The notes: generated by a model from the letters alone, not told the origin. Counted from the first letter of the stretch, positions 4,857 to 64,000 are shown. The stretch is DNA of 64,000 nucleotides from Gemmatales bacterium (GCA_025055835.1 JANWWR010000132.1:52834-116833), one strand, 5' to 3'. Translations and numbers: made by a program.

Positions 4857-4885
4857 TTGACAGTCGATGGCACTTGCTCTATTCC
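4857..4885 (+). promoter_or_regulatory. candidate sigma70-type promoter for bamA
   Basis: Perfect TTGACA at 4857-4862, a 17-nt spacer, then a weak -10 TATTCC at 4880-4885. It lies about 80 nt upstream of ATG 4964. Confidence 0.25.
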
Positions 4886-4963
4886 GCCCGCTCTTCACGG
4901 TACCCGCACAGGCCTGAAAAGCTCCGACCGAGGAATGGGGCTTCGCCAGGATCGGGACCGAGA

Positions 4964-12300: not shown

Positions 12301-12588
12301 GAATAGCATTTGCTGAGCCGTGTCTTGTGACGCACCCAGCTCGAAAGTCCCGGAGCCGTCAGCTCTTCAGCCGCCCTGATCCTGGTCCGAGTGTCGGAAA
12401 CAGAACGACGCGCGAAACCTTCAGCTGGCAGCTGAGGGTGCTGTCAATTGCCCTCTGGGAAGTCGCTTTCCAGCGGTTTTAAATGGCGCGGGTTGCCTGG
12501 ACCTGCGAAACGTCGTTGCTTGGACGGGGTTGAACGTCCACAATGGCAGAATCAAGAATCGCCCGCGATTCACGAGAGGTGCTCCGTC

Positions 12589-26417: not shown

Positions 26418-28916
26418 ATGTATGAAAAATTCACCGACCGAGCTCGCAAGGTGATGCAGCTCGCCAACCAGGAGGCGCAGCGCTTCAACCACGAGTACAT
26501 CGGTACCGAGCACATCCTGCTCGGCCTGGTCAAAGAAGGCTCCGGGGTGGCCGCCAATGTTTTGAAAAACCTGGACATCGACCTCCGCAAGATTCGCTTG
26601 GAGGTCGAGAAGATCGTTCAGAGCGGCCCCGAGATGGTCACCATGGGGAAATTGCCCCAGACACCGCGAGCCAAGAAAGTCATCGAATACGCCATCGAAG
26701 AAGCACGCAACCTTAATCACAATTACGTCGGAACGGAACACCTGCTGCTCGGCCTGCTGCGCGAGCAGGAAGGCGTCGCCGCTCAGGTCCTGATGAACCT
26801 GGGCCTCAAGCTCGAAGATGTCCGGGAAGAGGTCCTCAATTTGCTAGGGCACAACAACATGGAACCAAGCGAAAGCAGCAGCGAGCGGGCAGGCAGCAGG
26901 ACCAGCAAGTCCAAGACCCCCGCCCTCGATAGCTTTGGCCGCGACCTGACCGAACTGGCCCGTCAGGGCAAGCTCGATCCGGTCATCGGTCGTCAGAACG
27001 AAATCGAACGCGTCATCCAAATCCTCAGCCGCCGCACCAAGAACAACCCGGTGCTGCTCGGCGAGGCCGGCGTCGGCAAGACCGCCATCGTCGAGGGACT
27101 AGCCCAGATGATCGTGGACGGCAACGTGCCCGATCTCTTGCGGGATCGCCGTATCGTCGTCCTTGACTTGGCCATGATGGTGGCCGGGACCAAGTACCGC
27201 GGCCAGTTCGAGGAGCGCATCAAGGCGGTCATGAACGAGGTGCGCCGGGCCAAGAACACCATCCTGTTCATTGACGAACTGCACACCCTGGTCGGGGCTG
27301 GCGGGGCGGAAGGTGCCATCGATGCTTCCAACGTCCTCAAACCGGCCCTGGCCCGCGGCGAGATCCAGTGCATCGGCGCGACCACCCTCGACGAGTACCG
27401 CAAGTACATCGAGAAGGATAGCGCTCTGGAACGCCGCTTCCAGCAGATCATCGTCAATCCCCCGTCGCGGGACGAAGCCATCGAGATCCTTCGCGGTCTG
27501 CGGGACCGTTATGAAGCCCATCATCGGGTGCAGATCACCGATCGGGCTTTGGTCTCGGCGGTGGAGTTGTCGGACCGCTACATCTCCGGCCGCTGCCTGC
27601 CGGACAAGGCCATTGACGTGATCGACGAGGCGGGCGCTCGGGTTCGGCTCAAGGCCATGACTCGGCCGCCGGACCTCAAGCAGCTCGACGAGGAGATCGA
27701 ACGGCTCAACCAGGAAAAGGAAGCGGCTGTGGCCGAGCAGGATTTCGAGAAGGCCGCCAATCTCCGCGACCAGGCTGACCAGTTGAAGAAACGCAAGGAG
27801 CAGATTCAGCGCGAGTGGCGGGAGAAGTCCAAGGAGATCGACGGCGTCGTGGATGAGGAGGTCATCAGCGAAGTCGTCAGCAAGATGACCGGCGTGCCGC
27901 TCAAGCGGATCAGCGACGAGGAGACGACCCGCCTGCTTCGCATGGAGGAGGAATTGCACCGGGCGGTGGTCAGCCAGGACCAGGCAATCTCGGCCATCGC
28001 GCGGGCGGTGCGGCGAAGCCGGTCCGGCATCAAGGATCCCAAGCGGCCCATTGGCACGTTCATCTTCGCCGGGCCGACCGGCGTCGGCAAGACGCTGCTG
28101 GCCAAGCGGCTGGCCGAGTTCATGTTCGGTGACGAGAACGCCCTGGTGCAGATCGACATGAGCGAGTACCAGGAGAAGCACAACGTCAGCCGCCTGATCG
28201 GTGCCCCGCCGGGCTACGTCGGCTACGAGGAAGGTGGCCAGCTGACCGAGAAGATCCGCCGTCGGCCTTACAGTGTCGTGCTGCTCGACGAGATCGAGAA
28301 GGCCCATCCAGACGTCTGGAATATCTTCCTCCAGATCATGGAGGAGGGTCGGCTCACGGACAGCTACGGCCGGACCGTGGACTTCCGCAACACCATCATC
28401 ATCATGACCACCAACATCGGGGCTGAGCAGATCACCAATCGGCGGACGTTCGGCCTCGGCAAGCGGGACGAGGAGACGACCTACGAGAAGATGAAGGAGA
28501 CGCTCAAGGGCGCTCTGGAGCAGAACTTCCGACCTGAGTTCCTTAACCGGCTCGACGACATCATCGTCTTCCGCGCCTTGACCCGCGAAGACCTCCAGAG
28601 GATCGTGGACATCGAGCTGGGCAAGGTCTTCAAGCGGCTCCAGGAGCGCGGCATGAAGCTGAAGCTGACGCCGGAAGCCCGCGAGCACCTGATCGACAAG
28701 GGCTACAGCCCCGAGTTCGGCGCTCGGCCGCTGCGTCGGGCCATCGAGCACCTGCTCGAAGACCCGCTGGCCGAGGAACTGCTCCGCGGGACCTTCGCTG
28801 GCAAGGACACGATCATCGTCCGGCTGTCGGAGGTGGACGGCGAGAAGAAGTTCGTCTTCGAGGGCGTCGTCGGCTCGGCCCAGCCGGAGGAGCTTGTTCC
28901 CGCTGAGACCTCCTGA
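26418..28916 (+). CDS. clpC: ATP-dependent Clp protease ATP-binding subunit ClpC
   Basis: [16 protein letters not shown] begins the double Clp_N repeat. Two AAA+ modules ([17 protein letters not shown]) and a short UVR-like middle motif ([13 protein letters not shown]). 832 aa, typical for ClpC. Confidence 0.93.
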
Positions 28917-38876: not shown

Positions 38877-41477
38877 TCATTGGAACGTCAATGCTCCCTT
38901 CTTGGCATCGAAATCCACAACTACCCGCTGACCGTCGCGGATTTTGCCTTCGAGAATCAGCCGCCCCAGCACGGTTTCCAGCTCCCGTTGAATCGTCCGT
39001 TTCAGCGGCCGGGCACCGTAGGAAGGGTCGTAGCCGACCTGGACAAGATGCCGCTTCGCCGCGTCCGTCACCTCCAGCTTGATTTGCCGATCCTCCAGCC
39101 GCTTCCGCAGCCGATTCAGCTGGATGTCCACGATCTTCGTCAGTTGCTCCTCGGTCAGCGAGTGGAAGACGACGATCTCGTCAACGCGGTTGAGGAACTC
39201 CGGTCGGAAGTGATGCCGCAGTTCTTGCAAGACGGCTTCCTTCATCCGTTCGTAATTGGGACCATCGAACGCACCCCGGTATTCGAGGATGCGATGGCTG
39301 CCGATGTTGGATGTCATGATCACGATCGTGTTCTGGAAGTTGACGACGTGGCCCTGTCCATCTGTAAGCCGTCCGTCGTCGAGAATTTGCAGGAAAACGT
39401 TGAACACGTCGTGATGGGCCTTTTCGATCTCGTCGAAAAGGATCACGCAATACGGTTTGCGGCGGACGGCTTCGGTCAGTTGTCCGCCTTCCTCGTAGCC
39501 GACGTAGCCCGGCGGCGCGCCCAAAAGCCGGGAGACGTTGTGCTTTTCCTGGTACTCTGACATGTCGATGCGAACCAGGGCTTTTTCGTCGTCGAACAGC
39601 ACCTCGGCCAAGGCTCGGGCCAGTTCGGTCTTTCCCACGCCGGTCGGACCCAGGAAGATGAACGAGCCAATGGGGCGATTCGGGTCTTTCAGTCCCGATC
39701 GGGCACGGATGACAGCCTCGGCGACCGCTTTGACCGCCTCATCCTGACCGACGACCCGCTGGTGCAACTGCTCTTCCAGATGCAGCAGCTTCTGCACCTC
39801 GCCTTCGAGCAATTTCGAGACGGGGATGCCGGTCCAGCGGCTCACCACGTCGGCGATGTCGTGCTCGTCCACTTCTTCCTTGATGAGCCGACGGCCCTTC
39901 TCGGTGCTGAGCAATGCTTCCTCGACCTTCAGTTGCTTCTCCAGTTCGAGGAGCTTGCCATACTTCAACTCGGCGACCCGATTGAGGTCGTACTGCCGCT
40001 CTGCACGCTCGATTTCGAGCTTGGTCTGCTCGATCTGCTCCCGAAGCTTGCGGAGGTTTTCAACCGCCTTCTTCTCGTTCTGCCACTGGGCTTTGATGGC
40101 GTCGGTCTGTGCCCGCAGATCGGCCAGTTCCTTTTCCAACTTGGCCAGGCGTTCCTGGGAGGCGGGGTCTTTTTCCTTCTTGAGGGCCTCGCGTTCGATC
40201 TCCAGCTGCATGACTCGGCGAAGCTTTTCGTCGAGTTCCGCGGGCATGGAGTCGATCTCCGTGCGGAGCTTGGCAGCGGCTTCGTCCACGAGGTCGATGG
40301 CCTTGTCCGGCAGGAAGCGGTCGGAGATGTAGCGGTTGGACAGGACCGCAGCGGCGACGAGGGCCGAGTCCTTGATCCGCACCCCGTGATGGACTTCGTA
40401 CCGTTCCCGCAGACCGCGAAGGATCGAAATCGTGTCCTCGACGCTGGGCTGGTCCACCAGAACGGGCTGAAAACGGCGTTCCAAGGCGGCGTCCTTCTCG
40501 ATGTACTTGCGGTATTCGTCGAGGGTGGTTGCGCCGATGCAGTGTAGTTCGCCGCGGGCCAGCATCGGCTTGAGCAGGTTGCTGGCATCCATCGCCCCTT
40601 CGGCCTTGCCCGCACCGACGACGGTGTGCAGTTCGTCGATGAACAGGATGATCTCGCCCTGGGATTCCTGGATTTCCTTGAGCACGGCCTTGAGGCGTTC
40701 CTCGAACTCGCCGCGGTACTTGGCCCCGGCGATGAGCGCACCCATGTCGAGGGCGACAATGCGCTTGTTTTTAAGCCCCTCCGGCACATCGCCGCGGACG
40801 ATCCGCTGGGCCAGCCCCTCGACGATGGCGGTCTTGCCCACGCCGGGTTCGCCGATCAGCACCGGGTTGTTCTTGGTGCGGCGAGAAAGCACCTGGATGA
40901 CCCGGCGAATTTCATCGTCCCGGCCGATGACCGGGTCGAGCTTGCCGAGCCGAGCCAGTTGCGTCAGGTCCCGCCCGTACTTCTCCAGGGCCTGATACGT
41001 CGCCTCGGGATTCTGCGACGTGACCCGCTGGTGCCCGCGGACCTCCTGCAAGGCAGAAAGCAGCTTGTCGCGGGTGATCCCGAACTCTTTCAAAATGCGG
41101 CCGGTGGCTCCGCCGTCGTCGGTCATCGCCAGAAGCAGATGTTCGACACTGACGTAGTCATCCCGCAGCCGCTTGGCCTCATCCTCCGCCTGAAGGAACA
41201 GGCGATTGAGCCGACCCGTGACGTAAATCTGCCCGGGTTCGCCGGACGGCCCGCTGACCCGAGGCAATTTCTCCAGCTCCTGCTCGACCCGCCGCCGCAG
41301 CCGCTCAGCCGGGACGTTCAGCTTTTTCAGGACCGCTTCGGTCAAGCCGCCCTCTTGAGTCAGCAGGGCATACAGCAGATGCTCGACGTCCATCTGCTGC
41401 TGGCTTCTTCGCAACGCCAGCTTCTGGGCTTCAATGACTGCTTCCTGAGCTTTTTCCGTGAAACGATTAATGTCCAT
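38877..41477 (-). CDS. clpB: ATP-dependent disaggregase ClpB
   Basis: [13 protein letters not shown] starts the Clp_N domain. Two AAA+ modules ([18 protein letters not shown]) flank a long coiled-coil middle domain. ATG 41477 lies 10 nt after GGAGG. Confidence 0.95.
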
Positions 41478-41554
41478 GATAAGAGAGGAACCTCCGTCCT
41501 CGATCCGAAAGTTCAAATCTGCTTCGCAGCCGCGGTCTGCTGAAGCGATGCGTT

Positions 41555-54195: not shown

Positions 54196-56001
54196 ATGAC
54201 CGTTTCCATTGATCGCATTCGCAACTTTTGCATCATTGCCCATATTGACCACGGGAAAAGTACGCTCGCCGACCAGTTCCTTCTGAAGACGGGAGCGATT
54301 TCGCCCCGGGAGTTTCGCAGTCAGGCCTTGGACGCGATGGATCTGGAGCGGGAACGCGGCATCACCATCCGCATGCATCCCGTGACCATCTACTACACCC
54401 CGCCGGGTTCCGCGGAGCCTTTTGAACTCAACCTGATCGACACCCCGGGCCATGTGGACTTCAACTATGAGGTGTCCCGGAGCCTGGCAGCCTGCGAGGG
54501 AGCCATCCTCCTGGTGGACGCGGTTCAGGGAGTGCAGGCCCAAACCGTTCACAACGCCTTGCTGGCCTTGGAAGCAAATCTGACCATCGTTCCTGTGGTC
54601 AACAAGATCGACCTGCCCAACGCCCGCACCGACGAGGTGATCCTGGAGATGGAACACGTTCTGGGTATCCGGCCCGAGGAAGTGCTGCGATGCAGTGCCA
54701 AGACCGGGCAGGGCGTGGACGAGGTGCTTCAGGCGGTCATCGAGCGGATTCCGCCGCCTGGGGGCGCGCCGACCGACCCACTGCGGGCCTTGGTGTACAA
54801 CAGCCACTTCGACACCTACCGCGGGGTGGTGGTCTATGTCCGCGTCAAGGAAGGCGAGCTTCGCAAGGGCCAGCGGGTGCGCTTCATGCGGGCCGGGCGA
54901 GAATACGAAGTCAGCGAGCTGGGCCGCTTCCGACCCGCCCCGACGCCGGCGGACTGCCTGACGACCGGACAAGTCGGCTATTTCACGGCCCAGATCCGCG
55001 ATCTGCACGACATCCACATCGGCGACACCGTGACCGACGCCCTTCGTCCCGCCGCCGAGGCTCTGCCTGGTTATGCAGAGCCGAAGCCGATGGTCTTCAG
55101 CGGGTTGTACCCGGTGGACAGCAAGGACTTCGAAGCGCTCCGCGAAGCCCTGGCCCGGCTCAGCCTCAACGACTCCAGCTTCACCTACACGCCGGAGACC
55201 AGCGAGGGATTGGGTTTCGGCTTCCGTTGCGGGTTTCTGGGCATGTTGCACCGGGAGATCATTCAGCAGCGGATCGAGCGGGAGAGCGGCCTGGAACTCG
55301 TCCACACCGCGCCCAACACCACTTACGAAATCCTGACCCGCAAAGGCGAGGTTCTGCAAATCAACAATCCGCAGCAGGTTCCCGACGCCGGACAGATCGC
55401 CGAGTTCCGCGAGCCGATGGTCCGCATCTCCTTCGTCGTCCCGGCTGAGAACATTGGTGACATCATGCAGATCTGTACCGAACGTCGCGGCACTTACATC
55501 CGTACCGACTATCTCAGTCCCAGCCGCGTGCAACTGGTCTTCGAGATGCCCTTGGCGGAGATCATTTACGACCTGTACGACAAGCTGAAGTCTGTCACGC
55601 ACGGCTACGGAACGATGGATTACGAGTTTATCGGTTTCCGTCCGGCCGACCTGGTGCGGCTCGATGTGCTTGTTCACGGCAAGCGGGTGGATGCCCTTTC
55701 GACGATTGTGCATCGCTCCCAGGCGGAACGCCGTGGGCGGAAGCTGGTCAAGAAATTGCGGGGCGAGATCGACCGGCATCAGTTCGAGATCGCCATCCAG
55801 GCTGCTATCGGCAGCCGGGTCATCGCCCGGGAGACCATCGCTCCGTTGCGGAAGAACGTGACCGCCAAGTGCTACGGCGGCGACATCACCCGCAAGCGGA
55901 AACTGCTTGCCAAGCAGGCCGAGGGCAAGAAACGCATGAAACAGGTAGGTCAGGTTTCCATTCCGCAGGAAGCGTTTCTTTCGGTCCTGGAAGCGGAATG
56001 A
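54196..56001 (+). CDS. lepA: translation elongation factor 4 (LepA)
   Basis: IRNFCIIAHIDHGKSTLAD, DTPGHVDF, NKIDL and the LepA-specific C-terminus (KCYGGDITRKRKLL). The true start is ATG 54196. Confidence 0.95.
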   Translation: MTVSIDRIRNFCIIAHIDHGKSTLADQFLLKTGAISPREFRSQALDAMDLERERGITIRMHPVTIYYTPPGSAEPFELNLIDTPGHVDFNYEVSRSLAACEGAILLVDAVQGVQAQTVHNALLALEANLTIVPVVNKIDLPNARTDEVILEMEHVLGIRPEEVLRCSAKTGQGVDEVLQAVIERIPPPGGAPTDPLRALVYNSHFDTYRGVVVYVRVKEGELRKGQRVRFMRAGREYEVSELGRFRPAPTPADCLTTGQVGYFTAQIRDLHDIHIGDTVTDALRPAAEALPGYAEPKPMVFSGLYPVDSKDFEALREALARLSLNDSSFTYTPETSEGLGFGFRCGFLGMLHREIIQQRIERESGLELVHTAPNTTYEILTRKGEVLQINNPQQVPDAGQIAEFREPMVRISFVVPAENIGDIMQICTERRGTYIRTDYLSPSRVQLVFEMPLAEIIYDLYDKLKSVTHGYGTMDYEFIGFRPADLVRLDVLVHGKRVDALSTIVHRSQAERRGRKLVKKLRGEIDRHQFEIAIQAAIGSRVIARETIAPLRKNVTAKCYGGDITRKRKLLAKQAEGKKRMKQVGQVSIPQEAFLSVLEAE

Positions 56002-56097
56002 TCGACTGCGCCAGGCCCAAGCCCCCTGCGAATTCCGGGGGGAACTGAACCCGGGACAAACCCGTGAAAGGGCTAGGTCTTGCGGAGAAGCCGTCCT

Positions 56098-58341
56098 ATG
56101 ATAAGCGACGGCCTTTTACCAACCGAGGATCGCATGACCGAAAGTGCCGCTGAGAAACCCTCGTATCCGTCGTCGGGGTCCTCCCCTGCCAGCGCGGAAC
56201 CGTCCTTTGTCCAGCGTGTCAAAGCGGAACTTTTTCGGCCCCGCTCACGGCGTCCCAAGGAAGATGGCAAAGACACTCCCCGCGGCGACTCGCTGCGGGA
56301 ATCGGTCGAGACCGTGGTTTTCGTGATCGTTCTGGTCCTCATGCTCAAGGCCTTCGTGGCCGAGGCGTTCGTTATACCCACCGGCTCGATGGCCACCAGC
56401 CTGCTCGGCTATCACCGTCACGCTCATTGCCAGCAGTGCGGTCATGAGTTTCCCGTCAATGCCAGCGACGACGCCGAGGGTTCCCGCCGGGGCCAGGGCC
56501 AACTGGCATCCCTGGCGGTCTGTCCCAATTGCCGGAACATCCAGCCGCTCCAGCCCGGCATCGACGGCGGCGACAAGGTGCTTGTGCTCAAGCCGCACTA
56601 CGATCTTCACAGCCCTCAGCGGCTGGATGTGTTCGTGTTCAAATACCCTGGCAAGCAGGAAAGCGACGGAAGACGGATCGGTGGTCCGCAGGAGAACTTT
56701 ACTGCCAAGAACTACATCAAGCGTCTGTGGGGCTTGCCTGGGGAGAAACTCAGCATCTGGCACGGGGACGTCTACTTGATCGAGGGCGGCAAGGACGGAC
56801 AACCGCTGCGGCGGGAGATCATTCGCAAACCCCCCGTGAAAATGCTGGAGATGCGAAGGTCGGTGAGTGACGCGGATCAAGTCGCTGCGGACCTCAAGGA
56901 TTTCCTGCCGCCCTTGTGGGCCGATGAACAACCCGGTCAAGGTTGGCAGACCACGGACGCCTCGGGGACATTTCAGGTGCAGGCGGGTGCCGAGGAACGT
57001 CGGCTGCGCTACCGGCATTTCCTGCGGCCGCCGCCTTTGCCGGCCCAGACGATCCAGCGTGTCGCGTCATCCATCCGTATGATCGGCAATGCGGTGTCCG
57101 ACGCCCAGCGGGAACGGCTGGTCGGCACCGATGCCCTGGCCAACCTAGTTCGCTCCCTGGAGGCTGAACTGCCCGCGCTGGACGAAGTGACGCTGCTTCC
57201 GACCGCTTCGCGCAACGCGCAATTCCGCGAAATCCTCACCCGCCTGGAGAAGCGCTTCACGGATGTTGAAGAAGGGTTGGCGGTGTTGCGTCGGGCCGAC
57301 GGCCGACCTGTCGAGGACGCCGAATTCGGACCCAACTTCAAGGAGCGGATTCGGTTGGAGGTCCAATCCGGCAAACAGGCCCTGAGCGAGTTGCGGGACA
57401 CCTGGGAGGCCGCTCTGCAATGTGCCAACCGACCACAACTGATCACCGACTTTCTCGGTTACAACGCCCTGGTCTCCGCGTACCGCCAGTCGAATTTCTT
57501 TTATCCCCGAGAATGGGCCGGGGAACATGAACCGCATTGGGTCCGGGATCTCATGGTTGAATGCACCGTCGAAGTGCTTCAGCCCGGCGGAACTTTCGGG
57601 CTGGAGATTCAAGCAGGGTGTGATCTGCACCGGGCCACCTTCGACCTGAGCAGCGGCGAATGCGTGCTGCGGGTCTTGCGGTTTAACAACGGGCCGGAGC
57701 CGAAGGAGATAGCCGTTCAAAAGGCTGTCACGAGGCTTGGCAAACCGGGCAAGTATCGCCTCCGTTTCAGCAATTTCGATGAGCGCTTGACGTTATGGGT
57801 CGATGGCAGCCTGCCATTTGGCGACGGCTTGGCCTTCCCCAGTCCGTCGGCGGAAGACCGAGCGCCACGGGTCGGGGATACCAAGCCGGTCGCTCTCGTG
57901 GCCAAAGAAGCGGCTGTTCGGGTCAGCCAGCTTCGGCTCTTCCGGGACATCTACTACACCCGCTCGGCCGGTCGGCTGCCGACGGAATATGAGGACCTGC
58001 GTTTGCTCGATCTCAGCGCCCTGGGGGTGACAAGTTTTCTGAGCCTGTCGGCCCAGGAAACGCAATTGCCTGCTCATGCCAAAATCGAACGCTGGGAACC
58101 CATCGGACGGCAGAGGCCGTGGTACTATCCGATGGGCATGCGCCAGGAGTTCGGCCACGGATTCCCCGATCCGGAACTGAGCAACGGGCCGGTCTTCGGA
58201 CCTGATGAGTTCTTCGCCCTGGGCGACAATAGCACCCGCAGCTCCGACAGCCGCGAGTGGGGACAAGTGCCACGCCGCCTGTTTCTGGGTAAGGCCGTCA
58301 TCGTCTATTGGCCCTACACCCGCTTCGGAATCATTTGGTGA
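56098..58341 (+). CDS. lepB: signal peptidase I, unusually large (~750 aa) with zinc-ribbon and a large insertion
   Basis: SPase I boxes present. Box B is IPTGSMATSL (Ser codon 56386-56388). Box C is GGDKVLVLK. Box D is NYIKRLWGLPGEKL (Lys 56719-56721). Box E is GDNSTRSSDSREWG (from 58222). A CxxC..CxxC motif (HCQQCGHEF...CPNCRN) spans 56428-56532. Alternative starts are ATG 56134 or the ORF opening at 56080. Confidence 0.85.
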   Translation: MISDGLLPTEDRMTESAAEKPSYPSSGSSPASAEPSFVQRVKAELFRPRSRRPKEDGKDTPRGDSLRESVETVVFVIVLVLMLKAFVAEAFVIPTGSMATSLLGYHRHAHCQQCGHEFPVNASDDAEGSRRGQGQLASLAVCPNCRNIQPLQPGIDGGDKVLVLKPHYDLHSPQRLDVFVFKYPGKQESDGRRIGGPQENFTAKNYIKRLWGLPGEKLSIWHGDVYLIEGGKDGQPLRREIIRKPPVKMLEMRRSVSDADQVAADLKDFLPPLWADEQPGQGWQTTDASGTFQVQAGAEERRLRYRHFLRPPPLPAQTIQRVASSIRMIGNAVSDAQRERLVGTDALANLVRSLEAELPALDEVTLLPTASRNAQFREILTRLEKRFTDVEEGLAVLRRADGRPVEDAEFGPNFKERIRLEVQSGKQALSELRDTWEAALQCANRPQLITDFLGYNALVSAYRQSNFFYPREWAGEHEPHWVRDLMVECTVEVLQPGGTFGLEIQAGCDLHRATFDLSSGECVLRVLRFNNGPEPKEIAVQKAVTRLGKPGKYRLRFSNFDERLTLWVDGSLPFGDGLAFPSPSAEDRAPRVGDTKPVALVAKEAAVRVSQLRLFRDIYYTRSAGRLPTEYEDLRLLDLSALGVTSFLSLSAQETQLPAHAKIERWEPIGRQRPWYYPMGMRQEFGHGFPDPELSNGPVFGPDEFFALGDNSTRSSDSREWGQVPRRLFLGKAVIVYWPYTRFGIIW

Positions 58342-58355
58342 CCGAGCCGAAGATC

Positions 58356-58751
58356 ATGGCCGAAGGCTTACCCTTCTGCGACACCTGGATCCGCGTCCGT
58401 TACGCCGAAACCGACCGCATGGGCTACCTGCACCATGCCATGTATCCCGTCTATTTCGAGCAGGGCCGCACCGAACTGCTGCGGCAGCAGGGCGTGTCTT
58501 ATCGTCGCATGGAGGACGAGGGCTTCTTCCTGGCGGTGGTAAAACTCGAGGTGCGGTTCCGACGACCCGCCTACTTCGACGACCTGCTTCGGCTCCGGAC
58601 GACGTTGACCCGTGTCACCGCAGTGCGGGTGGAACATCGCTACGAACTGTTCCGCGACGACGAACTGATTTGCGAAGCAACGACGACGCTTGCCTGCGTA
58701 GATCGCGACGGCAGGCTCCAAGCCCTCCCGGAAGAACTGCGTAAAGGCTGA
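58356..58751 (+). CDS. 4HBT/YbgC-type acyl-CoA thioesterase
   Basis: WIRVRYAETDRMGYLHHAMYPVYFEQGR is a hot-dog fold with the YbgC-like catalytic Asp context. 131 aa. ATG 58356 lies 14 nt after the lepB stop. Confidence 0.85.
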   Translation: MAEGLPFCDTWIRVRYAETDRMGYLHHAMYPVYFEQGRTELLRQQGVSYRRMEDEGFFLAVVKLEVRFRRPAYFDDLLRLRTTLTRVTAVRVEHRYELFRDDELICEATTTLACVDRDGRLQALPEELRKG

Positions 58752-58836
58752 AAGCCATCTGCCGGCCTTTGAGACACCGAACCGCTAAACCCGGTCGGAC
58801 TTTCCATCTTTCCCGCTGTATGGTACATCTGCGCCT

Positions 58837-59355
58837 ATGCGCAGGTTCGTCATTCGTCGCCTCCTGCCGACGCTTTTTTGCCTGGTTCCCCTGGCCGGGG
58901 CCGTGCTCGTCGTGGTCGCCGTTCCGACCCAGGCGCTTCAGTTTTATCTTGCCAGCATCCGCACTTCCTACCTGGACTGGATCATCCTGGCTTTGGGCGG
59001 TTTCTTCTTCTTGTTCCAGATGGCCCTGGCCTGGCGGGCATTGCGGTGGAAGGAGCGCAGCTTCGACGAACGAAGCGATGCTCTTCTCCAGGGCATGTAT
59101 CAGGCGGCGGAGTGGTTTCCACTATTGGGCCTGTTCGGCACGGTGGCGGGCATCTTGCAGACGTTCGCGGCCATCGGGGTGCAGGAGTCGGTGCCGCAGC
59201 GGGAGATCATCCGCCTGTACGCCCCGGCCCTGACGACGACCGGCAGCGGTCTGCTGATGACGCTGCTGAACATCGTTCCGCTGTGGCTGGTGATCGTCGG
59301 CCGCCGCGTGATTCTGACGCTGGCCGTGACTCCCCCGGCCGTCGAGGAGCCGTGA
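58837..59355 (+). CDS. MotA/TolQ/ExbB-family proton-channel protein (short, 172 aa)
   Basis: About 4 TM segments. Family signature WFPLLGLFGTVAGILQTFAAI ... YAPALTTTGSGLLMTLLNIVP. Confidence 0.7.
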   Translation: MRRFVIRRLLPTLFCLVPLAGAVLVVVAVPTQALQFYLASIRTSYLDWIILALGGFFFLFQMALAWRALRWKERSFDERSDALLQGMYQAAEWFPLLGLFGTVAGILQTFAAIGVQESVPQREIIRLYAPALTTTGSGLLMTLLNIVPLWLVIVGRRVILTLAVTPPAVEEP

Positions 59356-59358
59356 CCG

Positions 59359-59877
59359 ATGACTCCGCCCAAGGGAAGCCGCAGCATCGTCCGGTTCCTG
59401 CTGCCGATGGCCGACATCATGGCGCTGCTCTTCTCGTTCTTTCTCCTTTTGCCCCATCTGGAGCACGATCCGGACAAGGCCCCGGCGGAGTCGCCGACGG
59501 GAAGTCTGTGGGCCTGGCAAGAGCAGGAGCAGTTGCGCGAGGAATTGCAGCGGCTGAGGCGACGCAGCCGGTTGCCCGTGGACGAACGACTCATGATCGT
59601 CGTGCTGGACATCGACGGCGATACCGGAGACCTTCTGCTGACCCAGAGTGGAAAAGTTCAGCGGCTCAATGCGGCCAGCATCGACAACGTCATTCAGGGA
59701 CATCTGGCTCGGGCCAGGGCGGAGGACCGCGAGTTGTTTTACCTCCTGAGAGTGCCACGACCGGATGAAAAGGGCAGCCGACCGCATCCGACCGTTGCCG
59801 ATGAGATGCTCTACCGCCGCGTGTTCGGGCGGCGTAAGGTGGATTTCCGCATCGACTACCCTCGTTTGGCGGAGTGA
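59359..59877 (+). CDS. TolR/ExbD-like protein
   Basis: N-terminal TM RFLLPMADIMALLFSFFLLL carries the conserved membrane Asp (GAC 59413-59415). The periplasmic part LMIVVLDIDGDTGDLLLTQSGKVQRL resembles the ExbD fold pattern. Starts 3 nt after the upstream stop. Confidence 0.65.
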   Translation: MTPPKGSRSIVRFLLPMADIMALLFSFFLLLPHLEHDPDKAPAESPTGSLWAWQEQEQLREELQRLRRRSRLPVDERLMIVVLDIDGDTGDLLLTQSGKVQRLNAASIDNVIQGHLARARAEDRELFYLLRVPRPDEKGSRPHPTVADEMLYRRVFGRRKVDFRIDYPRLAE

Positions 59878-59882
59878 CAGTC

Positions 59883-60557
59883 ATGGGTTTTACGGCACAA
59901 TCCCGCCTTTCCGACTGGTTTGCCGGTTCCGATCCGATCAGCGTTTTGCTGTGGACCGCCTACGTTTTCGTGGTCGTCTCCTCGGCGTTGATCGGCGGGT
60001 TCGTGACTGGCTTCGCGTTTCAGCACGTGGCCAGATTGATTGTTCGTGACCTGTCGGTTCGGGCTGTGAGCCGGGCGAGAATGATCGGCGGCGTCGTGGC
60101 GGCCATCCTGGCGGTGATGCTGCTCAATCCCGGCTGGCTGGGGCTGGGCGGAGGCGGTGCATCGGGACCCGAGGAGCAAGGCTCCGCCAAAGTTCAGCCG
60201 ACCAGCGATCCCAAGCCGTCGGAGGAGCCGCCTCCTCAACCCCAGCCTCCAACGTTGGCCGAGAAGGCGTCCGGCAACGGCATCGTGCGCATCCTCATCC
60301 TCGGCCCCGAAACGCAGCCCCCCTGGCAAGAGAAGAACCGCTATTTTGCCTTCCTCGACGATCCCATGCCCGAGGCGTTGGATGTGGGTGAAGTAATGAA
60401 GCGGATCGAGTCCCTTCGGCAGCAAAAGCCGGTGCGCGAAGTGGAACTCGTGGTCGTTCCGCAAAGCACTTCACCCAGGAATATCCCGGTGCAGAGCTTG
60501 CGATCGGAGCTGCAAGCCAAAGGCTTGCGGGTGTACGTGCCGCCGGAATTGCCCTGA
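59883..60557 (+). CDS. membrane protein with Gly/Pro-rich spacer and C-terminal ExbD/TolA-III-sized domain (TolA/TonB-like architecture)
   Basis: Two TM segments (ISVLLWTAYVFVVVSSALIGGFVTGFAF, MIGGVVAAILAVMLL). GLGGGGASGP precedes the Pro-rich PKPSEEPPPQPQPP. The C-terminal region is VRILILGPE...VREVELVVVPQSTS...GLRVYV. ATG 59883 lies 8 nt after GGAG. An alternative GTG at 59874 overlaps the upstream stop. Confidence 0.55.
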   Translation: MGFTAQSRLSDWFAGSDPISVLLWTAYVFVVVSSALIGGFVTGFAFQHVARLIVRDLSVRAVSRARMIGGVVAAILAVMLLNPGWLGLGGGGASGPEEQGSAKVQPTSDPKPSEEPPPQPQPPTLAEKASGNGIVRILILGPETQPPWQEKNRYFAFLDDPMPEALDVGEVMKRIESLRQQKPVREVELVVVPQSTSPRNIPVQSLRSELQAKGLRVYVPPELP

Positions 60558-60575
60558 TTGCCGGAGGTCCGCTCG

Positions 60576-62498
60576 ATGACGTCGGCATGTCGGGTCGAGA
60601 TCGTGGGTCCGCCCGATTCCGGCAAGGAGGAACTTCTCCGCCATCTGCGACAGGTTCAAGACGCTGCCGTGAATCTGGATTGGATTGCCGCGGAGGAACC
60701 GACCCCCGCCGCCGACGCGGTTCTGTTCGCGTGTCCGGCCCAGGAAACAGGAACACCTCTTCGCCAGCACCTGGCCGAGCTTTCCCGCCAGATGCGTGAA
60801 CTGTCCACCCTCCGCGGCGGGGCCTGCCAGGCAGCAGGATTTCCCGTCTTCATCGTCCTGACCCGAGCCGAACTTCTCGCGGAGCCGAAGCAGTCCTTCC
60901 AGGACTGGTTGGAGCTTCTGGAAACGCGCAAACAGCAACTCAGCCGCTTGTTTCTGTCCTTGATGGGACCGGGAGGAACCCACGGCTTTGGGGCCGCTCG
61001 GGTGTTCGTCTGGGCGACGGCGGGTCGTCGGCCGGGGCTGACTCCCGATAAGACCAGAAGTGAACAGCCGTTCGGCGTGCAAGAACTGGCTCGGCAGGTG
61101 CAATCGGCCGTCGCCGACCATCGCCAACGACAACGGAGACAAGAGCGGCGATTGCGATGGCTTTTGATTCTGTCCTTGGCTTCGTTGGCGGTGTTAGCGC
61201 TGACGGCACTCGGCTTTTTCCTGGCGGGGTCGGCTCGCTCGGAACTCTGGCCCGAAAAACCCGAACCGATCTGGGAACCCGGCGAACTCTTGGTCCAAGG
61301 CGAGCGACTGCTGGATTCCTCACGACGGCTGATTTCCTTCGAAGGCTATGTCCAGCCGTCGGAGACTGAACCACGGCTTTCTTCATCGGCATCAACGCAT
61401 TTTGTGGTGGACTGGCACCGATGGAGCAGGGATGCGCGGCAAGTCCTCGGGGAGATTCCGCTGTTGAGGTCCCAACTGGCCGCGGAGCGGATCGGGGAAA
61501 CGCTCAGCGCTCGCTTGCATGCCGCCGAGGACGATCTCGCCGCCCTGTTGGCTCGCGCCGGGGCCCTCGGTCTGGCTCCCGACAACGAGGCCAAATCCGC
61601 GTGGCTGCGCTTCCCGGCACGGACAGACGAGGATTGGCCGAAATATCGAGCCGATCTTAAAACCCGCCTGGAAGCTGTGGACAAATCGCAGGCAGCCGCG
61701 ATTTTCCGTCCGTTCCCTTGGGAGGTGCCAACCGGCGTCGTCGAACTCTATCGACAAGCCGCTCGGAGCAGTCTGGAGAATCTGCTCGAACCCGTCCGCC
61801 AGGAAATCCGCCGGCGTGTGATGGATTTGGGTCAGCAGCAGGAGACGGTTGAAGCGTGGCGAGCTTTGGCCGAAGGCTGGCTATCGAATCAAGCCGAGGC
61901 GGAACTGTACGAATGGCGGCAATTTGCCTTGCTCTTGGCGAAGCTGAGCGGTGAGGCTGAGCCGAGCGATCCGCTGGTCGAACTGGTTTCCTTTCTCCGC
62001 CAGTCCGAGTTCAAGTTGCCGCTGGACCGTGTGATGCTTCAGCTACCCGCCCGAATCGTCTCCGGCGAGCAGATCATCATCGGACTTAGACCGATCCCAG
62101 CACCGCTGACCATTCAAATAACAGGCACTTCGGGAGCCGTGACCGTGCTTGAGTTGTTGCCCCTCACGGAAACGGCCCGGCCGTCGGCCGTGGCAGGAGA
62201 ATATGTGTTCGCAGCAGCGCGGAACAGTCCGCTTTCGGAGGGCTTCCTGCGGGTCAAGCCCGGAGAGCGAATTTCAGCCCGGGCACTCCTCGAGGATGCG
62301 GATGGGCTCAAATGGGAACTGATTTGGTCCCCCGCCGACAGCCCTTCTCAGATTTACATGCACACGCTGCTGGCCCAGGTCCCAAGGTTGCGCCCGGTGC
62401 AAGGGGCACCGTCAGCTACCGCGCCCATTGCGTTCGGAGCGCGGCTGCGTTTTTTGGATCCCAGAGCGTTCGACCTGCCGAGACTGTTTCCCCGCTGA
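60576..62498 (+). CDS. membrane-anchored P-loop (GTPase-like) protein with large extracytoplasmic C-terminal region
   Basis: RVEIVGPPDSGKEELL is a Walker-A-like motif at 60606-60629 with Glu in place of Ser/Thr. FPVFIVLTRAEL sits at the G4-like position. A TM segment LRWLLILSLASLAVLALTALGFFLAG spans ~61155-61226, followed by ~420 aa without recognisable motifs. ATG 60576 lies 8 nt after GGAGG (60563-60567). Confidence 0.6.
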   Translation: MTSACRVEIVGPPDSGKEELLRHLRQVQDAAVNLDWIAAEEPTPAADAVLFACPAQETGTPLRQHLAELSRQMRELSTLRGGACQAAGFPVFIVLTRAELLAEPKQSFQDWLELLETRKQQLSRLFLSLMGPGGTHGFGAARVFVWATAGRRPGLTPDKTRSEQPFGVQELARQVQSAVADHRQRQRRQERRLRWLLILSLASLAVLALTALGFFLAGSARSELWPEKPEPIWEPGELLVQGERLLDSSRRLISFEGYVQPSETEPRLSSSASTHFVVDWHRWSRDARQVLGEIPLLRSQLAAERIGETLSARLHAAEDDLAALLARAGALGLAPDNEAKSAWLRFPARTDEDWPKYRADLKTRLEAVDKSQAAAIFRPFPWEVPTGVVELYRQAARSSLENLLEPVRQEIRRRVMDLGQQQETVEAWRALAEGWLSNQAEAELYEWRQFALLLAKLSGEAEPSDPLVELVSFLRQSEFKLPLDRVMLQLPARIVSGEQIIIGLRPIPAPLTIQITGTSGAVTVLELLPLTETARPSAVAGEYVFAAARNSPLSEGFLRVKPGERISARALLEDADGLKWELIWSPADSPSQIYMHTLLAQVPRLRPVQGAPSATAPIAFGARLRFLDPRAFDLPRLFPR

Positions 62499-62523: not shown

Positions 62524-64000
62524 TCAGTTCCTGTCAGGAACATCCACAGACCAGGCCGCCGAGACAGCCACGGCATCTTTCTCCGGTCCCTCGGGATAGG
62601 TTAGTTCCATCACGGCGTCGAGATAGGCTCGGGCTTCAACGACCAACCGGGTCGCGGGATCGATCCACATGATGCCGTGGAGTGCCCCTTGAGTCATTGT
62701 CTTGCCGGGAACGGCATCGCCGCTGAAGCGAATGCACACCAGCTTCTTCCCGGCCCGTTCTGCGAGGCCGTCGGGGGTGTAGGAGACATTGAACTGCATC
62801 GGTTCCTGGACGCTGAGCGGGTCGCCGGCAAGCGACACCGTGGCATTCCAGGAGCGGCCAGGCCGCAATTCGTTTTCCTTCTCCGGCACCTGGAAGATGC
62901 TGAAGATCTGGTCAACAACGCGATGCAATCCGGCCAGTTCGCCGCGAAATTCCCCAGCGGCGGCAAAGCGAGGTTCGTTCCCCTGGGCTTGCACGTTTCC
63001 TTGTGCATTCTGCTGATTGAGAATCGCCTGAACGAGCGGGCGAGGCAGCGGACGTTCGCCGACACGCACGCCGAGGTCGAACCCGAGATAGCGTTCCGGG
63101 GTCCCTTTTGCGTCTAGCTCGGTTCGGCAACCCAGGTTGACCGTCAAGGGCGTGGGGGACCCGGCTTCTCCGCCCCGTTGAACTACCCGATAACGTGCCA
63201 AGAGCCTCCGTGCTTGACTGTCTGCGTCCGCGGGAGATTTCAGTGCCGCCTGGGCAGTTTGGACAGCCAGGGCGGGGCGATAGGTGACGCCGTTACTGAC
63301 GCGGTAGGTGCCATCCTTCTCGGCGACATAAGCCCGCAAGTGATAAACCTGATTGTCCGGCAATGGAGGCAGCTTCAGTACACCTCTCCGCCAGATCGCC
63401 CGGTCCGCGGGAAGAGCAAGCCGATTCTCCGCGGGTAAATCCGTGACCCAACCGGCCGATTGCTTCGCCTCAGCGTCGCCGATGCTCCAGGCCACCCCAA
63501 GCTCCGTGAATCGGTGCAGGGGATCCGACACTTCCAGACTGACCGGCAGCAGGATGCCGCCGTTTTGCTGCTGAGGCATGCCAAGGATCAGGTCGCCGAA
63601 GCGTCCGTGGTACAATTGCCAGACATGCTCGGCGGGGACAGCGAAGCTGATGCCCGTATTCCGCAGAAAGTTGACGTAGATCGAAACCGCGACTCCGACG
63701 ACCCGTCCCTGGGCGTCCACGACTGGCCCACCGGAATTTCCGGGATTAAGTTCGCCATTCATCTGAATGCGGTACATGTCCTTGCCATCTCGAACGAAGC
63801 TGGCCACCGAAACCTTGCTCGTGGACATGCGGGTGTTCAGGTTCTCGCCGTAGGGGAATCCAAAGGCCACCAGCAGCTGTGTGCGAAACAGCGTGGAAGC
63901 AGAGACGACCTTGAGCGGCTCGGGCAGTTCGACGCCTTTGGCATCCACCTGAAGCAAGGCCAGATCGAGATGGCCATCAGCGTGGAGCACCTTGGCCTGA
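62524..64000 (-). CDS. trypsin-like (S1C) serine protease with long C-terminal extension, 5' end outside the window
   Basis: The reading frame stays open to the window edge (..QAKVLHADGHLDLALLQV). Catalytic Asp context is DLALLQV and the Ser motif is LNPGNSGGPVVD. The ~330-aa C-terminal region has no recognised motifs. The track's M at 63990 is an internal GTG (Val). Confidence 0.8.
   Translation of the reverse strand, partial: QAKVLHADGHLDLALLQVDAKGVELPEPLKVVSASTLFRTQLLVAFGFPYGENLNTRMSTSKVSVASFVRDGKDMYRIQMNGELNPGNSGGPVVDAQGRVVGVAVSIYVNFLRNTGISFAVPAEHVWQLYHGRFGDLILGMPQQQNGGILLPVSLEVSDPLHRFTELGVAWSIGDAEAKQSAGWVTDLPAENRLALPADRAIWRRGVLKLPPLPDNQVYHLRAYVAEKDGTYRVSNGVTYRPALAVQTAQAALKSPADADSQARRLLARYRVVQRGGEAGSPTPLTVNLGCRTELDAKGTPERYLGFDLGVRVGERPLPRPLVQAILNQQNAQGNVQAQGNEPRFAAAGEFRGELAGLHRVVDQIFSIFQVPEKENELRPGRSWNATVSLAGDPLSVQEPMQFNVSYTPDGLAERAGKKLVCIRFSGDAVPGKTMTQGALHGIMWIDPATRLVVEARAYLDAVMELTYPEGPEKDAVAVSAAWSVDVPDRN

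What the first reader, a model, noticed from the sequence alone, without database searches (positions are those of the whole stretch)
58356..62498. Divergent Tol-like cluster (ybgC-tolQ-tolR-tolA-like) with a membrane-anchored P-loop protein in the TolB/Pal position
Seen in sequence:
- Five co-directional genes directly downstream of lepA-lepB, with gaps of 14, 85, 3, 5 and 18 nt. The junctions are stop 59353-59355 / ATG 59359, stop 59875-59877 / ATG 59883 (or overlapping GTG 59874), and stop 60555-60557 / GGAGG 60563-60567 / ATG 60576.
- Gene 1 is a 4HBT thioesterase (YAETDRMGYLHH).
- Gene 2 (172 aa) carries the MotA/TolQ/ExbB channel signature LLGLFGTVAGILQTF...ALTTTGSGLLMTLLN.
- Gene 3 (172 aa) has a TolR/ExbD-type single TM with the invariant Asp (LLPMADIMALLF).
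- Gene 4 has two TM segments, a Gly run, a Pro-rich spacer (PKPSEEPPPQPQPP) and a small C-terminal domain. This is a TolA/TonB-like architecture.
- Gene 5 is a 640-aa protein with an N-terminal P-loop domain, one TM and a ~420-aa outer region with no motif I recognise.

Established knowledge:
- The E. coli Tol-Pal cluster is ordered ybgC-tolQ-tolR-tolA-tolB-pal-cpoB.
- TolQR, ExbBD and MotAB are PMF-driven motors.
- Class Planctomycetia lacks FtsZ, and its division and outer-membrane constriction machinery is unresolved.

Inference: this looks like a Tol-type motor whose periplasmic and outer-membrane partners (TolB, Pal, CpoB) are absent. They appear to be replaced by a nucleotide-binding membrane protein. 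That would make it a candidate undescribed trans-envelope energising, division or remodelling system.
Basis: partly seen in the sequence, partly recalled or inferred. Interest (0 to 1): 0.8.

Follow-up and report, generated by a model that had tools for sequence, protein, structure and literature searches.

The report
Gemmatales TolQR-like motor with GTPase partner
This is a real five-gene operon, kept across the planctomycete order Gemmatales, that joins a stripped-down Tol-type proton motor to two uncharacterised membrane proteins; one of these belongs to a new membrane GTPase family but has lost its GTP-binding motifs in this organism.

Summary
The five genes exist exactly where reported.

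- **g1** is a YbgC/FadM thioesterase.
- **g2** is a 172-aa MotA/TolQ/ExbB protein. Its closest solved relative is TolQ, and both pore threonines are kept.
- **g3** is a TolR/ExbD/MotB-type protein with an invariant membrane Asp.
- **g4** is not TolA/TonB. It has two TM helices, no conserved His/SHLS motif and no TonB/TolA domain. Its C-terminal domain looks paralogous to that of g3.
- **g5** belongs to an unannotated family of 373 cluster representatives. The build is a cytoplasmic TRAFAC GTPase, one TM helix, a periplasmic helical bundle and a beta-sandwich. Typical members carry G1, G3 and G4 motifs. The window's copy has lost all three, so it is a pseudo-GTPase, not a working P-loop protein.

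**Conservation.**
- The lepB/thioesterase/g2/g3/g4 order is conserved in Gemmatales.
- g5 follows g4 in about 55% of genomes, and g5 is preceded by g3 and g4 in 23 of 26 loci.

**What was not found.**
- No defence-system, TonB, TolB or Pal signature.
- No paper describing the cluster in the searched library.

**Verdict.**
- It is a new variant of the 5:2 proton-motor theme and is vertically inherited.
- Its cellular role is unknown.
- "Replaces TolB/Pal" and a role in division are untested.

The parts
54196..56001 (+). lepA (elongation factor 4). Upstream neighbour on the same strand.
   Evidence: ORF. The orthologous locus L001 has a 601-aa product with GTP_EFTU and LepA_C domains. The start was placed at 'MTVSIDRIRNF' by comparing lengths with that orthologue.
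56080..58341 (+). lepB. An unusually long signal peptidase I of 753 aa, with its S26 domain split by a large insert. It ends 14 nt before g1.
   Evidence: PF10502 E 5e-24 and TIGR02227 at 87 bits, matched in three separate stretches. A lepB homologue lies upstream of the cassette in 44 of 59 GTDB loci.
58356..58751 (+). g1: YbgC/FadM-family 4HBT acyl-CoA thioesterase (131 aa).
   Evidence: PF13279 E 1.2e-18. TIGR00051 scores 85 bits against a cutoff of 68.7. The best single model is TIGR02799 thio_ybgC at 91 bits, below its cutoff of 141. It lies directly upstream of g2 in 63 of 70 loci.
58837..59355 (+). g2: minimal TolQ/ExbB-like stator subunit (172 aa). It has four hydrophobic segments and a very short cytoplasmic loop.
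   Evidence: PF01618 at 37 bits against a cutoff of 22.9. The profile's best match in the PDB is TolQ 8odt_A at E 8.4e-5. g2 T102 aligns with TolQ T145 and g2 T135 with TolQ T178, and both are invariant in alignment A2. There are 1227 homologues at E<=0.001; the 120 best are 55-91% identical.
59359..59877 (+). g3: TolR/ExbD/MotB-type subunit (172 aa). It has an N-terminal TM helix with an invariant Asp (D19), then a coiled-coil segment, then a C-terminal alpha/beta domain.
   Evidence: Alignment A4 shows F13, P16, D19, L23, L24 and F25 invariant. The profile hits C. jejuni MotB 6ykp at E 5.6e-4. hhalign of the TM helix against an ExbD/TolR profile gives E 2e-4. PF02472 is not reached (12.6 bits).
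59883..60557 (+). g4: two-TM hairpin protein (224 aa). After the hairpin come a nearly invariant Gly-rich segment, a low-complexity Pro-rich linker, and a periplasmic alpha/beta domain of about 90 aa that looks paralogous to the C-terminal domain of g3.
   Evidence: Alignment A5. No Pfam, NCBIfam or PDB sequence match. hhalign of the g3 against the g4 C-terminal domain gives E 4.8e-5. A repeat with more sequences gives E 3e-5, probability 73%, over 86 columns, with a reversed-column control at E 0.18.
60576..62498 (+). g5: bitopic protein (640 aa). Residues 1-150 form a cytoplasmic degenerate GTPase-like domain. A long helix spans about 168-223 and contains the TM segment. Residues about 237-475 form a periplasmic helical bundle, and about 479-630 a beta-sandwich.
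   Evidence: AF2 model md06964796d26 has pLDDT 92. Foldseek matches the N-terminal domain to GTPases: SsGBP, Sar1, G-alpha, Rag, IRGQ and CENP-M. The family has 373 representatives at E<=1e-3. The family consensus carries G1 GxPxAGK[ST], G3 DCDG and G4 TKCD, whereas the window has GPPDSGKE, a deletion, and TRAE.

Best explanation
The region encodes a lineage-specific, vertically inherited envelope machine of the order Gemmatales. It is built around a minimal Tol-type 5:2 proton motor.

Proposed working:
- g2 (TolQ-like) is inferred to form the pentameric ring. g3 (TolR-like, invariant TM Asp) forms the dimeric axle. Proton flow through the Asp/Thr site would drive rotation or conformational cycling, as in TolQR, ExbBD and MotAB.
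- g4 is a two-TM protein whose periplasmic domain is a paralogue of the g3 domain. It is inferred to dock on the motor and pair with g3 in the periplasm.
- g5 is inferred to be the output or regulatory partner. It has a large periplasmic helical-bundle and beta-sandwich module, joined through a single TM helix to a cytoplasmic GTPase domain. In most Gemmataceae that domain would act as a GTP switch gating assembly or activity.
- In the clade that holds this window, the switch has decayed into a pseudo-GTPase scaffold.
- The YbgC-like thioesterase and LepB are conserved operon companions, as YbgC is for tolQRA.

Shown here:
- The family assignments of g1, g2 and g3.
- The g3/g4 domain relationship.
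- The fold and motif state of g5.
- The synteny.

Inferred:
- The 5:2 stoichiometry.
- Physical coupling of g4 and g5 to the motor.
- Any role in the outer membrane, cell wall or budding.
For: Motor core:
- g2 passes PF01618 and matches TolQ best, with both pore Thr residues invariant.
- g3 has an invariant Asp and matches MotB and ExbD TM helices.

Coupling of g4 and g5:
- Gaps of 3, 5 and 18 nt separate the genes.
- g4 follows g3 in 46 of 68 GTDB loci.
- g5 is preceded by g3 and g4 in 23 of 26 metagenome loci found by searching with g5 alone.
- The same lepA/lepB/4HBT/MotA_ExbB/163/239/672-aa order occurs around the divergent g5 member P0197.
- The g3 and g4 C-terminal domains are homologous: E 3e-5, control 0.18.

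g5:
- Confident model with an N-in, C-out layout.
- GTPase fold.
- The family consensus carries G1, G3 and G4 motifs.
- PF19993 DO-GTPase2 and MMR_HSR1 hits on long members.

Housekeeping character:
- Found in 206 GTDB species loci.
- Syntenic with lepB in 44 of 59 loci.
- No PADLOC hit.
Against: - No experiment and no multimer model supports contact between g4 or g5 and the motor.
- g5 is not adjacent in 23 of 52 GTDB loci with enough sequence, where unrelated genes follow g3 or g4. g5 also stands alone in at least four metagenome loci: L088, L093, L121 and L124.
- g2 lacks most of the cytoplasmic domain of TolQ/ExbB, and the position matching TolQ E173 is an invariant Pro. Motor function is therefore assumed, not shown.
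- g3 does not reach the ExbD Pfam threshold.
- The periplasmic part of g5 has no structural match that could point to a target.
- Loss of the GTPase motifs in this lineage shows that GTP switching is dispensable, at least here.
Confidence: 0.55

Rival explanations
1. An ordinary ExbB-ExbD-TonB energiser for TonB-dependent uptake, with g4 as a divergent TonB and g5 as an unrelated neighbour.
For: - g2 also matches ExbB (E 2e-3; exbB2 at 24 bits).
- g4 has a TM anchor, a Pro-rich linker and a small C-terminal domain.
- g5 is not always adjacent.
Against: - No TonB_C, TolA or TonB_2 hit at E<=1 in 40 g4 orthologues, and no PDB hit.
- g4 has two TM helices and no conserved His or Ser. The nearly invariant residues in A5 are only M1 and Gly positions. 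TolA and TonB are defined by a single TM helix with an SHLS/His motif (PMC12204202).
- The g4 C-terminal domain aligns with that of g3 instead.
- The conserved ybgC-like gene upstream is a Tol trait, not a Ton trait.
- A Gemmataceae locus also carries canonical PF02472 ExbD genes elsewhere (L020).
Confidence: 0.07
2. An anti-phage or conflict system: Zorya-like (MotAB homologues plus effectors), or a membrane variant of the DO-GTPase conflict systems.
For: - Zorya uses MotA/MotB homologues (background knowledge).
- Long g5 homologues touch PF19993 DO-GTPase2 (29.9 and 32.2 bits against a cutoff of 27). That family is described from conflict systems (PMC7159879).
Against: - No PADLOC hit for g1-g4, and only a chance-level Csx3 hit for g5 (E 0.022).
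- No GAP1 or effector-like Pfam domain in the cassette.
- The cassette sits in a stable housekeeping context, with lepB upstream in 44 of 59 loci and lepA beyond it in the loci examined.
- It was found in 206 GTDB species loci, with identity ranging smoothly from 91% down to 48% among the 80 best loci. This is the pattern of vertical descent, not of a mobile defence island.
Confidence: 0.05
3. g1-g4 form the functional unit, a Tol-like motor with a paired TolR-like partner. g5 is a separate membrane (pseudo)GTPase that is merely often co-located and has its own function.
For: - g5 is missing from the cassette in 23 of 52 loci.
- It stands alone in L088, L093, L121 and L124.
- The edge member P0242 is in an unrelated context.
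Against: - When g5 is present, it follows g4 in 23 of 26 loci sampled through g5 alone.
- The gap is 18 nt with its own Shine-Dalgarno sequence.
- The link is kept across both the GTPase-intact and the GTPase-dead clades.
Confidence: 0.2

Closest known systems
Tol-Pal system (ybgC-tolQ-tolR-tolA-tolB-pal-cpoB)
   Same: - A YbgC-family thioesterase sits directly upstream of a TolQ-like and a TolR-like gene.
- g2's best solved relative is TolQ, and the equivalents of T145 and T178 are kept.
- g3 has the TM Asp.
- The genes are tightly packed and co-directional.
   Different: - g2 is 172 aa rather than about 230, with a vestigial cytoplasmic domain and an extra N-terminal hydrophobic segment. The TolQ equivalog model scores 25 bits against a cutoff of 221.
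- There is no TolA: no single SHLS TM helix and no TolA/TonB C-terminal domain.
- No TolB, Pal or CpoB lies in the cluster or among the large ORFs of the window.
- Two extra proteins, g4 and g5, have no Tol counterpart.
ExbB-ExbD-TonB
   Same: A PF01618 subunit plus an Asp-bearing single-TM partner. g4 has an anchor, linker and small-domain layout.
   Different: No TonB C-terminal domain, no His motif, two TM helices in g4, and conserved linkage to a ybgC-like gene. g3 does not reach PF02472.
[quoted passage not shown] 2025, PMC12204202)
   Same: An atypical Tol/Ton-type motor in the PVC group, accompanied by two proteins that share a periplasmic domain and by a non-TolA, non-TonB membrane-tethered periplasmic protein.
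   Different: No TPR gene, no vWA domain, and no SHLS TM helix. The second 'TolR-like' protein (g4) has no TM Asp and has two TM helices. The output protein carries a cytoplasmic GTPase domain.
Myxococcus Agl-Glt gliding machinery with MglA (PMC11135422)
   Same: A TolQR-type motor whose assembly is governed by a GTPase acting on the cytoplasmic side of a membrane partner.
   Different: There, the GTPase MglA is a separate soluble Ras-like protein that binds GltJ. Here, the GTPase domain is fused to the transmembrane partner. No Glt homologues were seen.
DO-GTPase conflict systems (Kaur et al. 2020, PMC7159879; Pfam PF19993)
   Same: The GTPase domain of long g5 homologues is a TRAFAC GTPase, and the nearest Pfam model is DO-GTPase2.
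   Different: Matches are at or below threshold. There is no GAP1 partner, no effector domains and no paired GTPases. The context is housekeeping. The window's copy does not match the model at all.

Membership tests
Tol-Pal system | TolQ: a PF01618 protein at TolQ equivalog level | tested here: inconclusive
   PF01618 is passed (37 bits against 22.9) and TolQ is the best PDB match (E 8.4e-5). However, TIGR02796 tolQ scores 25 bits against a cutoff of 221, and the protein is 172 aa.
Tol-Pal system | TolR: a single TM helix with the essential Asp, plus a PF02472 periplasmic domain | tested here: inconclusive
   The Asp is invariant, and the TM helix aligns to ExbD/TolR (E 2e-4). PF02472 scores only 12.6 bits against a cutoff of 25.4. 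The C-terminal domain is not detectably ExbD-like.
Tol-Pal system | TolA: one TM helix with an SHLS/His motif, a linker, and a TolA/TonB C-terminal domain | tested here: not met
   g4 has two TM helices and no conserved His or Ser. There are no TolA, TonB_C or TonB_2 hits in 40 orthologues and no PDB hit.
Tol-Pal system | TolB, Pal and CpoB encoded downstream | tested here: not met
   g5 is followed by a convergent trypsin-like protease gene. No TolB, OmpA-like or CpoB domains were found among the large ORFs of the window or in related loci. The rest of the genome could not be searched.
Tol-Pal system | ybgC thioesterase at the head of the cluster | tested here: met
   TIGR00051 YbgC/FadM scores 85 bits against a cutoff of 68.7. 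The thio_ybgC equivalog model is the top hit but falls below its cutoff. The gene is adjacent in 63 of 70 loci.
ExbBD-TonB | TonB C-terminal domain (PF03544) on a single-TM, His-bearing protein | tested here: not met
MotAB stator | OmpA-like peptidoglycan-binding domain on the B subunit | tested here: not met
   No PF00691 hit for g3 or g4. The MotB match is limited to the TM and plug region.
Functional TRAFAC GTPase | G1 GxxxxGK[ST], G3 DxxG and G4 [NT]KxD motifs | tested here: not met
   The window's g5 has GPPDSGKE, has lost the DCDG segment, and has TRAE. The long family members meet all three motifs.
DO-GTPase conflict system | PF19993 or its partner model above threshold, plus a GAP1 partner and variable effectors | tested here: not met
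   The window's g5 has no PF19993 hit. Only 2 of 10 homologues just pass. Neighbouring genes have no GAP1 or effector domain hits.
Zorya or other catalogued defence systems | A match to PADLOC models | tested here: not met

The most novel reading that the evidence does not exclude
This cassette is the Gemmatales substitute for Tol-Pal. It would be a PMF-driven TolQR-like motor whose periplasmic output (g4 and g5) is gated from the cytoplasm by a fused GTPase. It would drive outer-membrane or cell-wall remodelling during FtsZ-independent budding. That would make it a new class of nucleotide-gated trans-envelope force transducer.
Probability: 0.15. Interest if true: 0.85.

Novelty: new variant of a known kind. 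Interest (0 to 1): 0.6.

Why it matters
Proton-driven 5:2 motors (MotAB, ExbBD, TolQR, GldLM, ZorAB) are emerging as general power units that are plugged into very different output modules.

This cassette offers three things:
- An unusually small TolQ-like ring.
- A partner pair that share one periplasmic domain.
- An output protein that joins a cytoplasmic GTPase switch to a large periplasmic module. I found no description of that combination.

It is conserved across an order of budding, FtsZ-less bacteria whose envelope dynamics are poorly understood. It is present in cultured strains, including Gemmata, Telmatocola and Zavarzinella. That gives a concrete, genetically testable candidate.

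The natural series from intact GTPase to pseudo-GTPase is also a ready-made evolutionary experiment on whether nucleotide switching is needed.

Tried and rejected
- **Direct family searches.** Pfam, NCBIfam, PADLOC and PDB-sequence searches of g4 and g5 found nothing usable.
- **First g5 model.** The AF2 model built from 4 sequences was poor (pLDDT 54). It was replaced by a model from a 90-sequence alignment (pLDDT 92).
- **ExbD-like fold for the g3 and g4 C-terminal domains.** hhalign against a shallow ExbD/TolR profile gave an in-register but non-significant match for g4 (E 0.016-0.058, probability below 3%) and nothing for g3. My last homologue search returned only near-identical enterobacterial ExbD sequences, so it did not deepen the profile. 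The idea remains open.
- **ORFs after g4 where g5 is missing.** The ORFs in L029 and L020 are antisense artefacts. The others are unrelated genes.
- **The 85-nt g1-g2 spacer.** It shows no conserved element. There were no Rfam hits in the window. The promoter and terminator scans were at background level.
- **ORF-calling artefact.** My longest-ORF calling extended some g3 starts into the alternative frame of g2. This polluted one iterated HMM. Trimmed sets were used afterwards.
- **Organism names for divergent g5 members.** None were informative.

Full report
**1. Observation**

Direct reading of 60541-60600 confirms TGA at 60555-60557, GGAGG at 60563-60567 and ATG at 60576.

- Upstream lie lepA (54196-56001) and a long lepB (56080-58341).
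- Downstream lies a convergent trypsin-like protease gene.
- Base composition is uniform across the region, at about 61-63% GC, so there is no sign of an inserted island.
- g5 is identical to a protein deposited from a 'Gemmatales bacterium' MAG.

**2. The individual proteins**

*g1* is a YbgC/FadM-family 4HBT thioesterase.
- PF13279 gives E 1e-18, and TIGR00051 scores 85 bits against a cutoff of 68.7.
- The Tol-associated equivalog model is the top hit but falls below its cutoff.

*g2* passes PF01618 MotA_ExbB.
- A profile of 14 orthologues matches solved TolQ best (8odt_A, E 8.4e-5), then ExbB (2e-3), then MotA (0.097).
- The alignment puts the invariant g2 T102 and T135 on TolQ T145 and T178.
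- TolQ E173 corresponds to an invariant Pro in g2.
- At 172 aa, g2 has only about 25 residues where TolQ and ExbB have their large cytoplasmic domain. It also has an extra N-terminal hydrophobic segment. This is read from the sequence.

*g3* shows only weak single-sequence hits.
- In 40 orthologues the TM motif 'RFFIPLIDVLILLF' is almost invariant, including the Asp.
- The profile hits C. jejuni MotB (E 5.6e-4).
- The TM helix aligns to an ExbD/TolR profile (E 2e-4).
- It is therefore a B/D/R-type axle subunit, but not a recognisable PF02472 member.

*g4* matches no family.
- Its orthologues share this layout: a two-TM hairpin, a nearly invariant Gly-rich stretch, a low-complexity linker, and an alpha/beta domain of about 90 aa.
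- TolA and TonB force transducers are defined by a single TM helix with an SHLS/His motif, a linker and a TolA/TonB C-terminal domain (PMC12204202). g4 meets only the linker criterion.
- Profile-profile comparison instead aligns the g4 C-terminal domain with that of g3 over the whole domain. This gave E 4.8e-5, then E 3e-5 at 73% probability over 86 columns with a reversed control at E 0.18.
- Whether this shared domain is ExbD-like remains unresolved.

*g5* has only three close relatives in the word-indexed search.
- An exhaustive profile search found 373 cluster representatives. All those with a name are labelled 'hypothetical'.
- Typical members are 820-850 aa. They carry 'LRIVLFGMPDAGKSSLLGAL' near residue 25 and a TM segment near residue 285.
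- The 90-sequence alignment shows G1 GxPxAGK[ST], G3 DCDG and G4 LTKCD.
- Some long members just pass PF19993 DO-GTPase2 or approach MMR_HSR1.
- The window's clade is 600-680 aa long. It has a deletion of about 80 residues that removes the DCDG segment. Its P-loop is degenerate: GPPDSGKE here, GPPxSDK[AS] in the closest orthologues, and unrecognisable in others. Its G4 reads TRAE or TQAD.
- With the deep alignment, AF2 gives a confident model (pLDDT 92):
  - a Rossmann/GTPase-like domain at residues 1-150;
  - a long helix at 168-223 that contains the TM segment and is preceded by an Arg-rich stretch, so the N-terminus is cytoplasmic;
  - a periplasmic helical bundle at about 237-475;
  - a beta-sandwich at about 479-630.
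- Foldseek matches the N-terminal domain to GTPases, including the pseudo-GTPase CENP-M. It finds nothing credible for the periplasmic part. The profile search against PDB sequences agrees.

**3. Conservation**

The g2 subfamily is large, with 1227 homologues.
- A scan of one genome per GTDB species found 206 loci.
- The 80 best all appear to be Gemmatales or Gemmataceae. They include Telmatocola, Zavarzinella, Gemmata and Limnoglobus, and a few bins carry implausible labels.

HMM scans of these loci gave the following counts:

| Gene | Position | Loci with the gene / loci with enough sequence |
|---|---|---|
| g1 | directly upstream of g2 | 63 / 70 |
| lepB | upstream | 44 / 59 |
| g3 | after g2 | essentially all (a g3-family ORF in every locus listed whose sequence extends past g2; my position-filtered count of 39/78 is an artefact of extended ORF starts) |
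| g4 | after g3 | 46 / 68 |
| g5 | after g4 | 28-29 / 52 |

- Where g4 or g5 is missing, unrelated genes follow.
- I then searched metagenomes with g5 alone. Of 26 loci with at least 2.2 kb upstream, 23 have g3 and g4 immediately upstream, 21 have g2 and 19 have g1. Four loci have g5 standing alone.
- A divergent short-form g5 without any P-loop (P0197) sits in the same lepA/lepB/4HBT/MotA_ExbB/163/239/672-aa arrangement.
- One Gemmataceae locus also carries a canonical tandem ExbD pair about 9 kb away (PF02472, 65.9 bits). The cassette is therefore additional to ordinary ExbD-type motors.

**4. Interpretation**

The evidence fits a vertically inherited envelope machine specific to Gemmatales.
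- Its core is Tol-like: ybgC-like, tolQ-like and tolR-like genes.
- Two lineage-specific partners accompany the core.
- By analogy with solved TolQR, ExbBD and MotAB complexes, I infer a 5:2 g2:g3 proton motor.
- g4 probably pairs with g3 through the shared periplasmic domain.
- g5 is the best candidate for the output or regulatory arm. It would link a cytoplasmic GTP switch to a large periplasmic module.
- In the window's lineage the switch is dead, so any regulation by GTP is dispensable there.
- None of these couplings has been shown physically.

**5. Alternatives**

- *An ordinary Ton set* is unlikely. There is no TonB domain or His motif, and the ybgC linkage is Tol-like.
- *A defence system* is unlikely. 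There is no PADLOC hit, the housekeeping synteny is stable, and the cassette is present order-wide.
- *g5 is functionally independent of g1-g4* remains a real possibility, at about 0.2.

**6. Literature**

Full-text searches found no description of this cassette. The closest published ideas are:
- atypical PVC motor clusters with paired tolR-like genes and vWA transducers (PMC12204202);
- GTPase control of the Myxococcus Agl-Glt motor through GltJ (PMC11135422);
- the DO-GTPase family (PMC7159879).

**7. Verdict**

- The 'Tol-like motor with novel partners' reading is partly supported.
- The 'TolA-like' label for g4 and the 'P-loop/nucleotide-binding' label for g5 need correction.
- The claims that the cassette replaces TolB/Pal or acts in division remain hypotheses.
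- I class it as a new variant of a known kind of system, of moderate to high interest.

Noticed in passing
window 56080-58341: LepB is 753 aa, more than twice the usual size. Its S26 catalytic boxes are split by an insert of about 450 aa with no family match. Relatives have similarly long versions of 737-790 aa.
   Followed up: partly
L020:19306-20297 (minus strand): A Gemmataceae MAG carries a tandem pair of canonical ExbD/TolR genes (PF02472, 65.9 and 22.3 bits), followed by a 239-aa protein with no family. This resembles the paired-tolR motor clusters described for the PVC group (PMC12204202).
   Followed up: partly
window 58837-59355 (g2 residue P130): The position that aligns with TolQ E173 is an invariant Pro in the whole g2 subfamily. 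Together with the near-absent cytoplasmic domain, this suggests an altered ion path or gating.
   Followed up: no
window 62470-62498 (g5 C-terminus): The extreme C-terminus of the g5 family is conserved: P635, L637 and P639 in 'LPRLFPR', and 'VPDLxPVVRL' in long forms. It could be a docking motif.
   Followed up: no
L019, L026, L027, L047, L054, L060, L062, L074, L079; P0018: Contigs labelled 'uncultured Alcaligenaceae', 'Bacteroidales' or 'Acidobacteria' carry the Gemmatales-type cassette at 49-71% identity. These are probably mislabelled or contaminated bins.
   Followed up: no
window 4874-7333: A BamA homologue with five POTRA domains plus Omp85. A BamB-like PQQ propeller lies at 12448-13836. 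This confirms a diderm envelope with beta-barrel assembly machinery.
   Followed up: no
window 62524-63990 (minus strand): A trypsin/HtrA-like protease gene converges on g5 with a gap of only 25 nt. Orthologues are 699-847 aa, so the 488-aa ORF listed here may be an under-called start or may extend towards the window end.
   Followed up: no
L167:207-2018 (P0242): A member at the edge of the g5 family has an N-terminal zinc ribbon and a DO-GTPase2 match (32 bits). It sits in a different context, with Ser/Thr kinases nearby. It may bridge g5 to the DO-GTPase conflict systems.
   Followed up: partly
window 26418-28916 and 38877-41516: Two ClpA/ClpB-type double-AAA+ chaperone genes lie 10 kb apart on opposite strands.
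   Followed up: no
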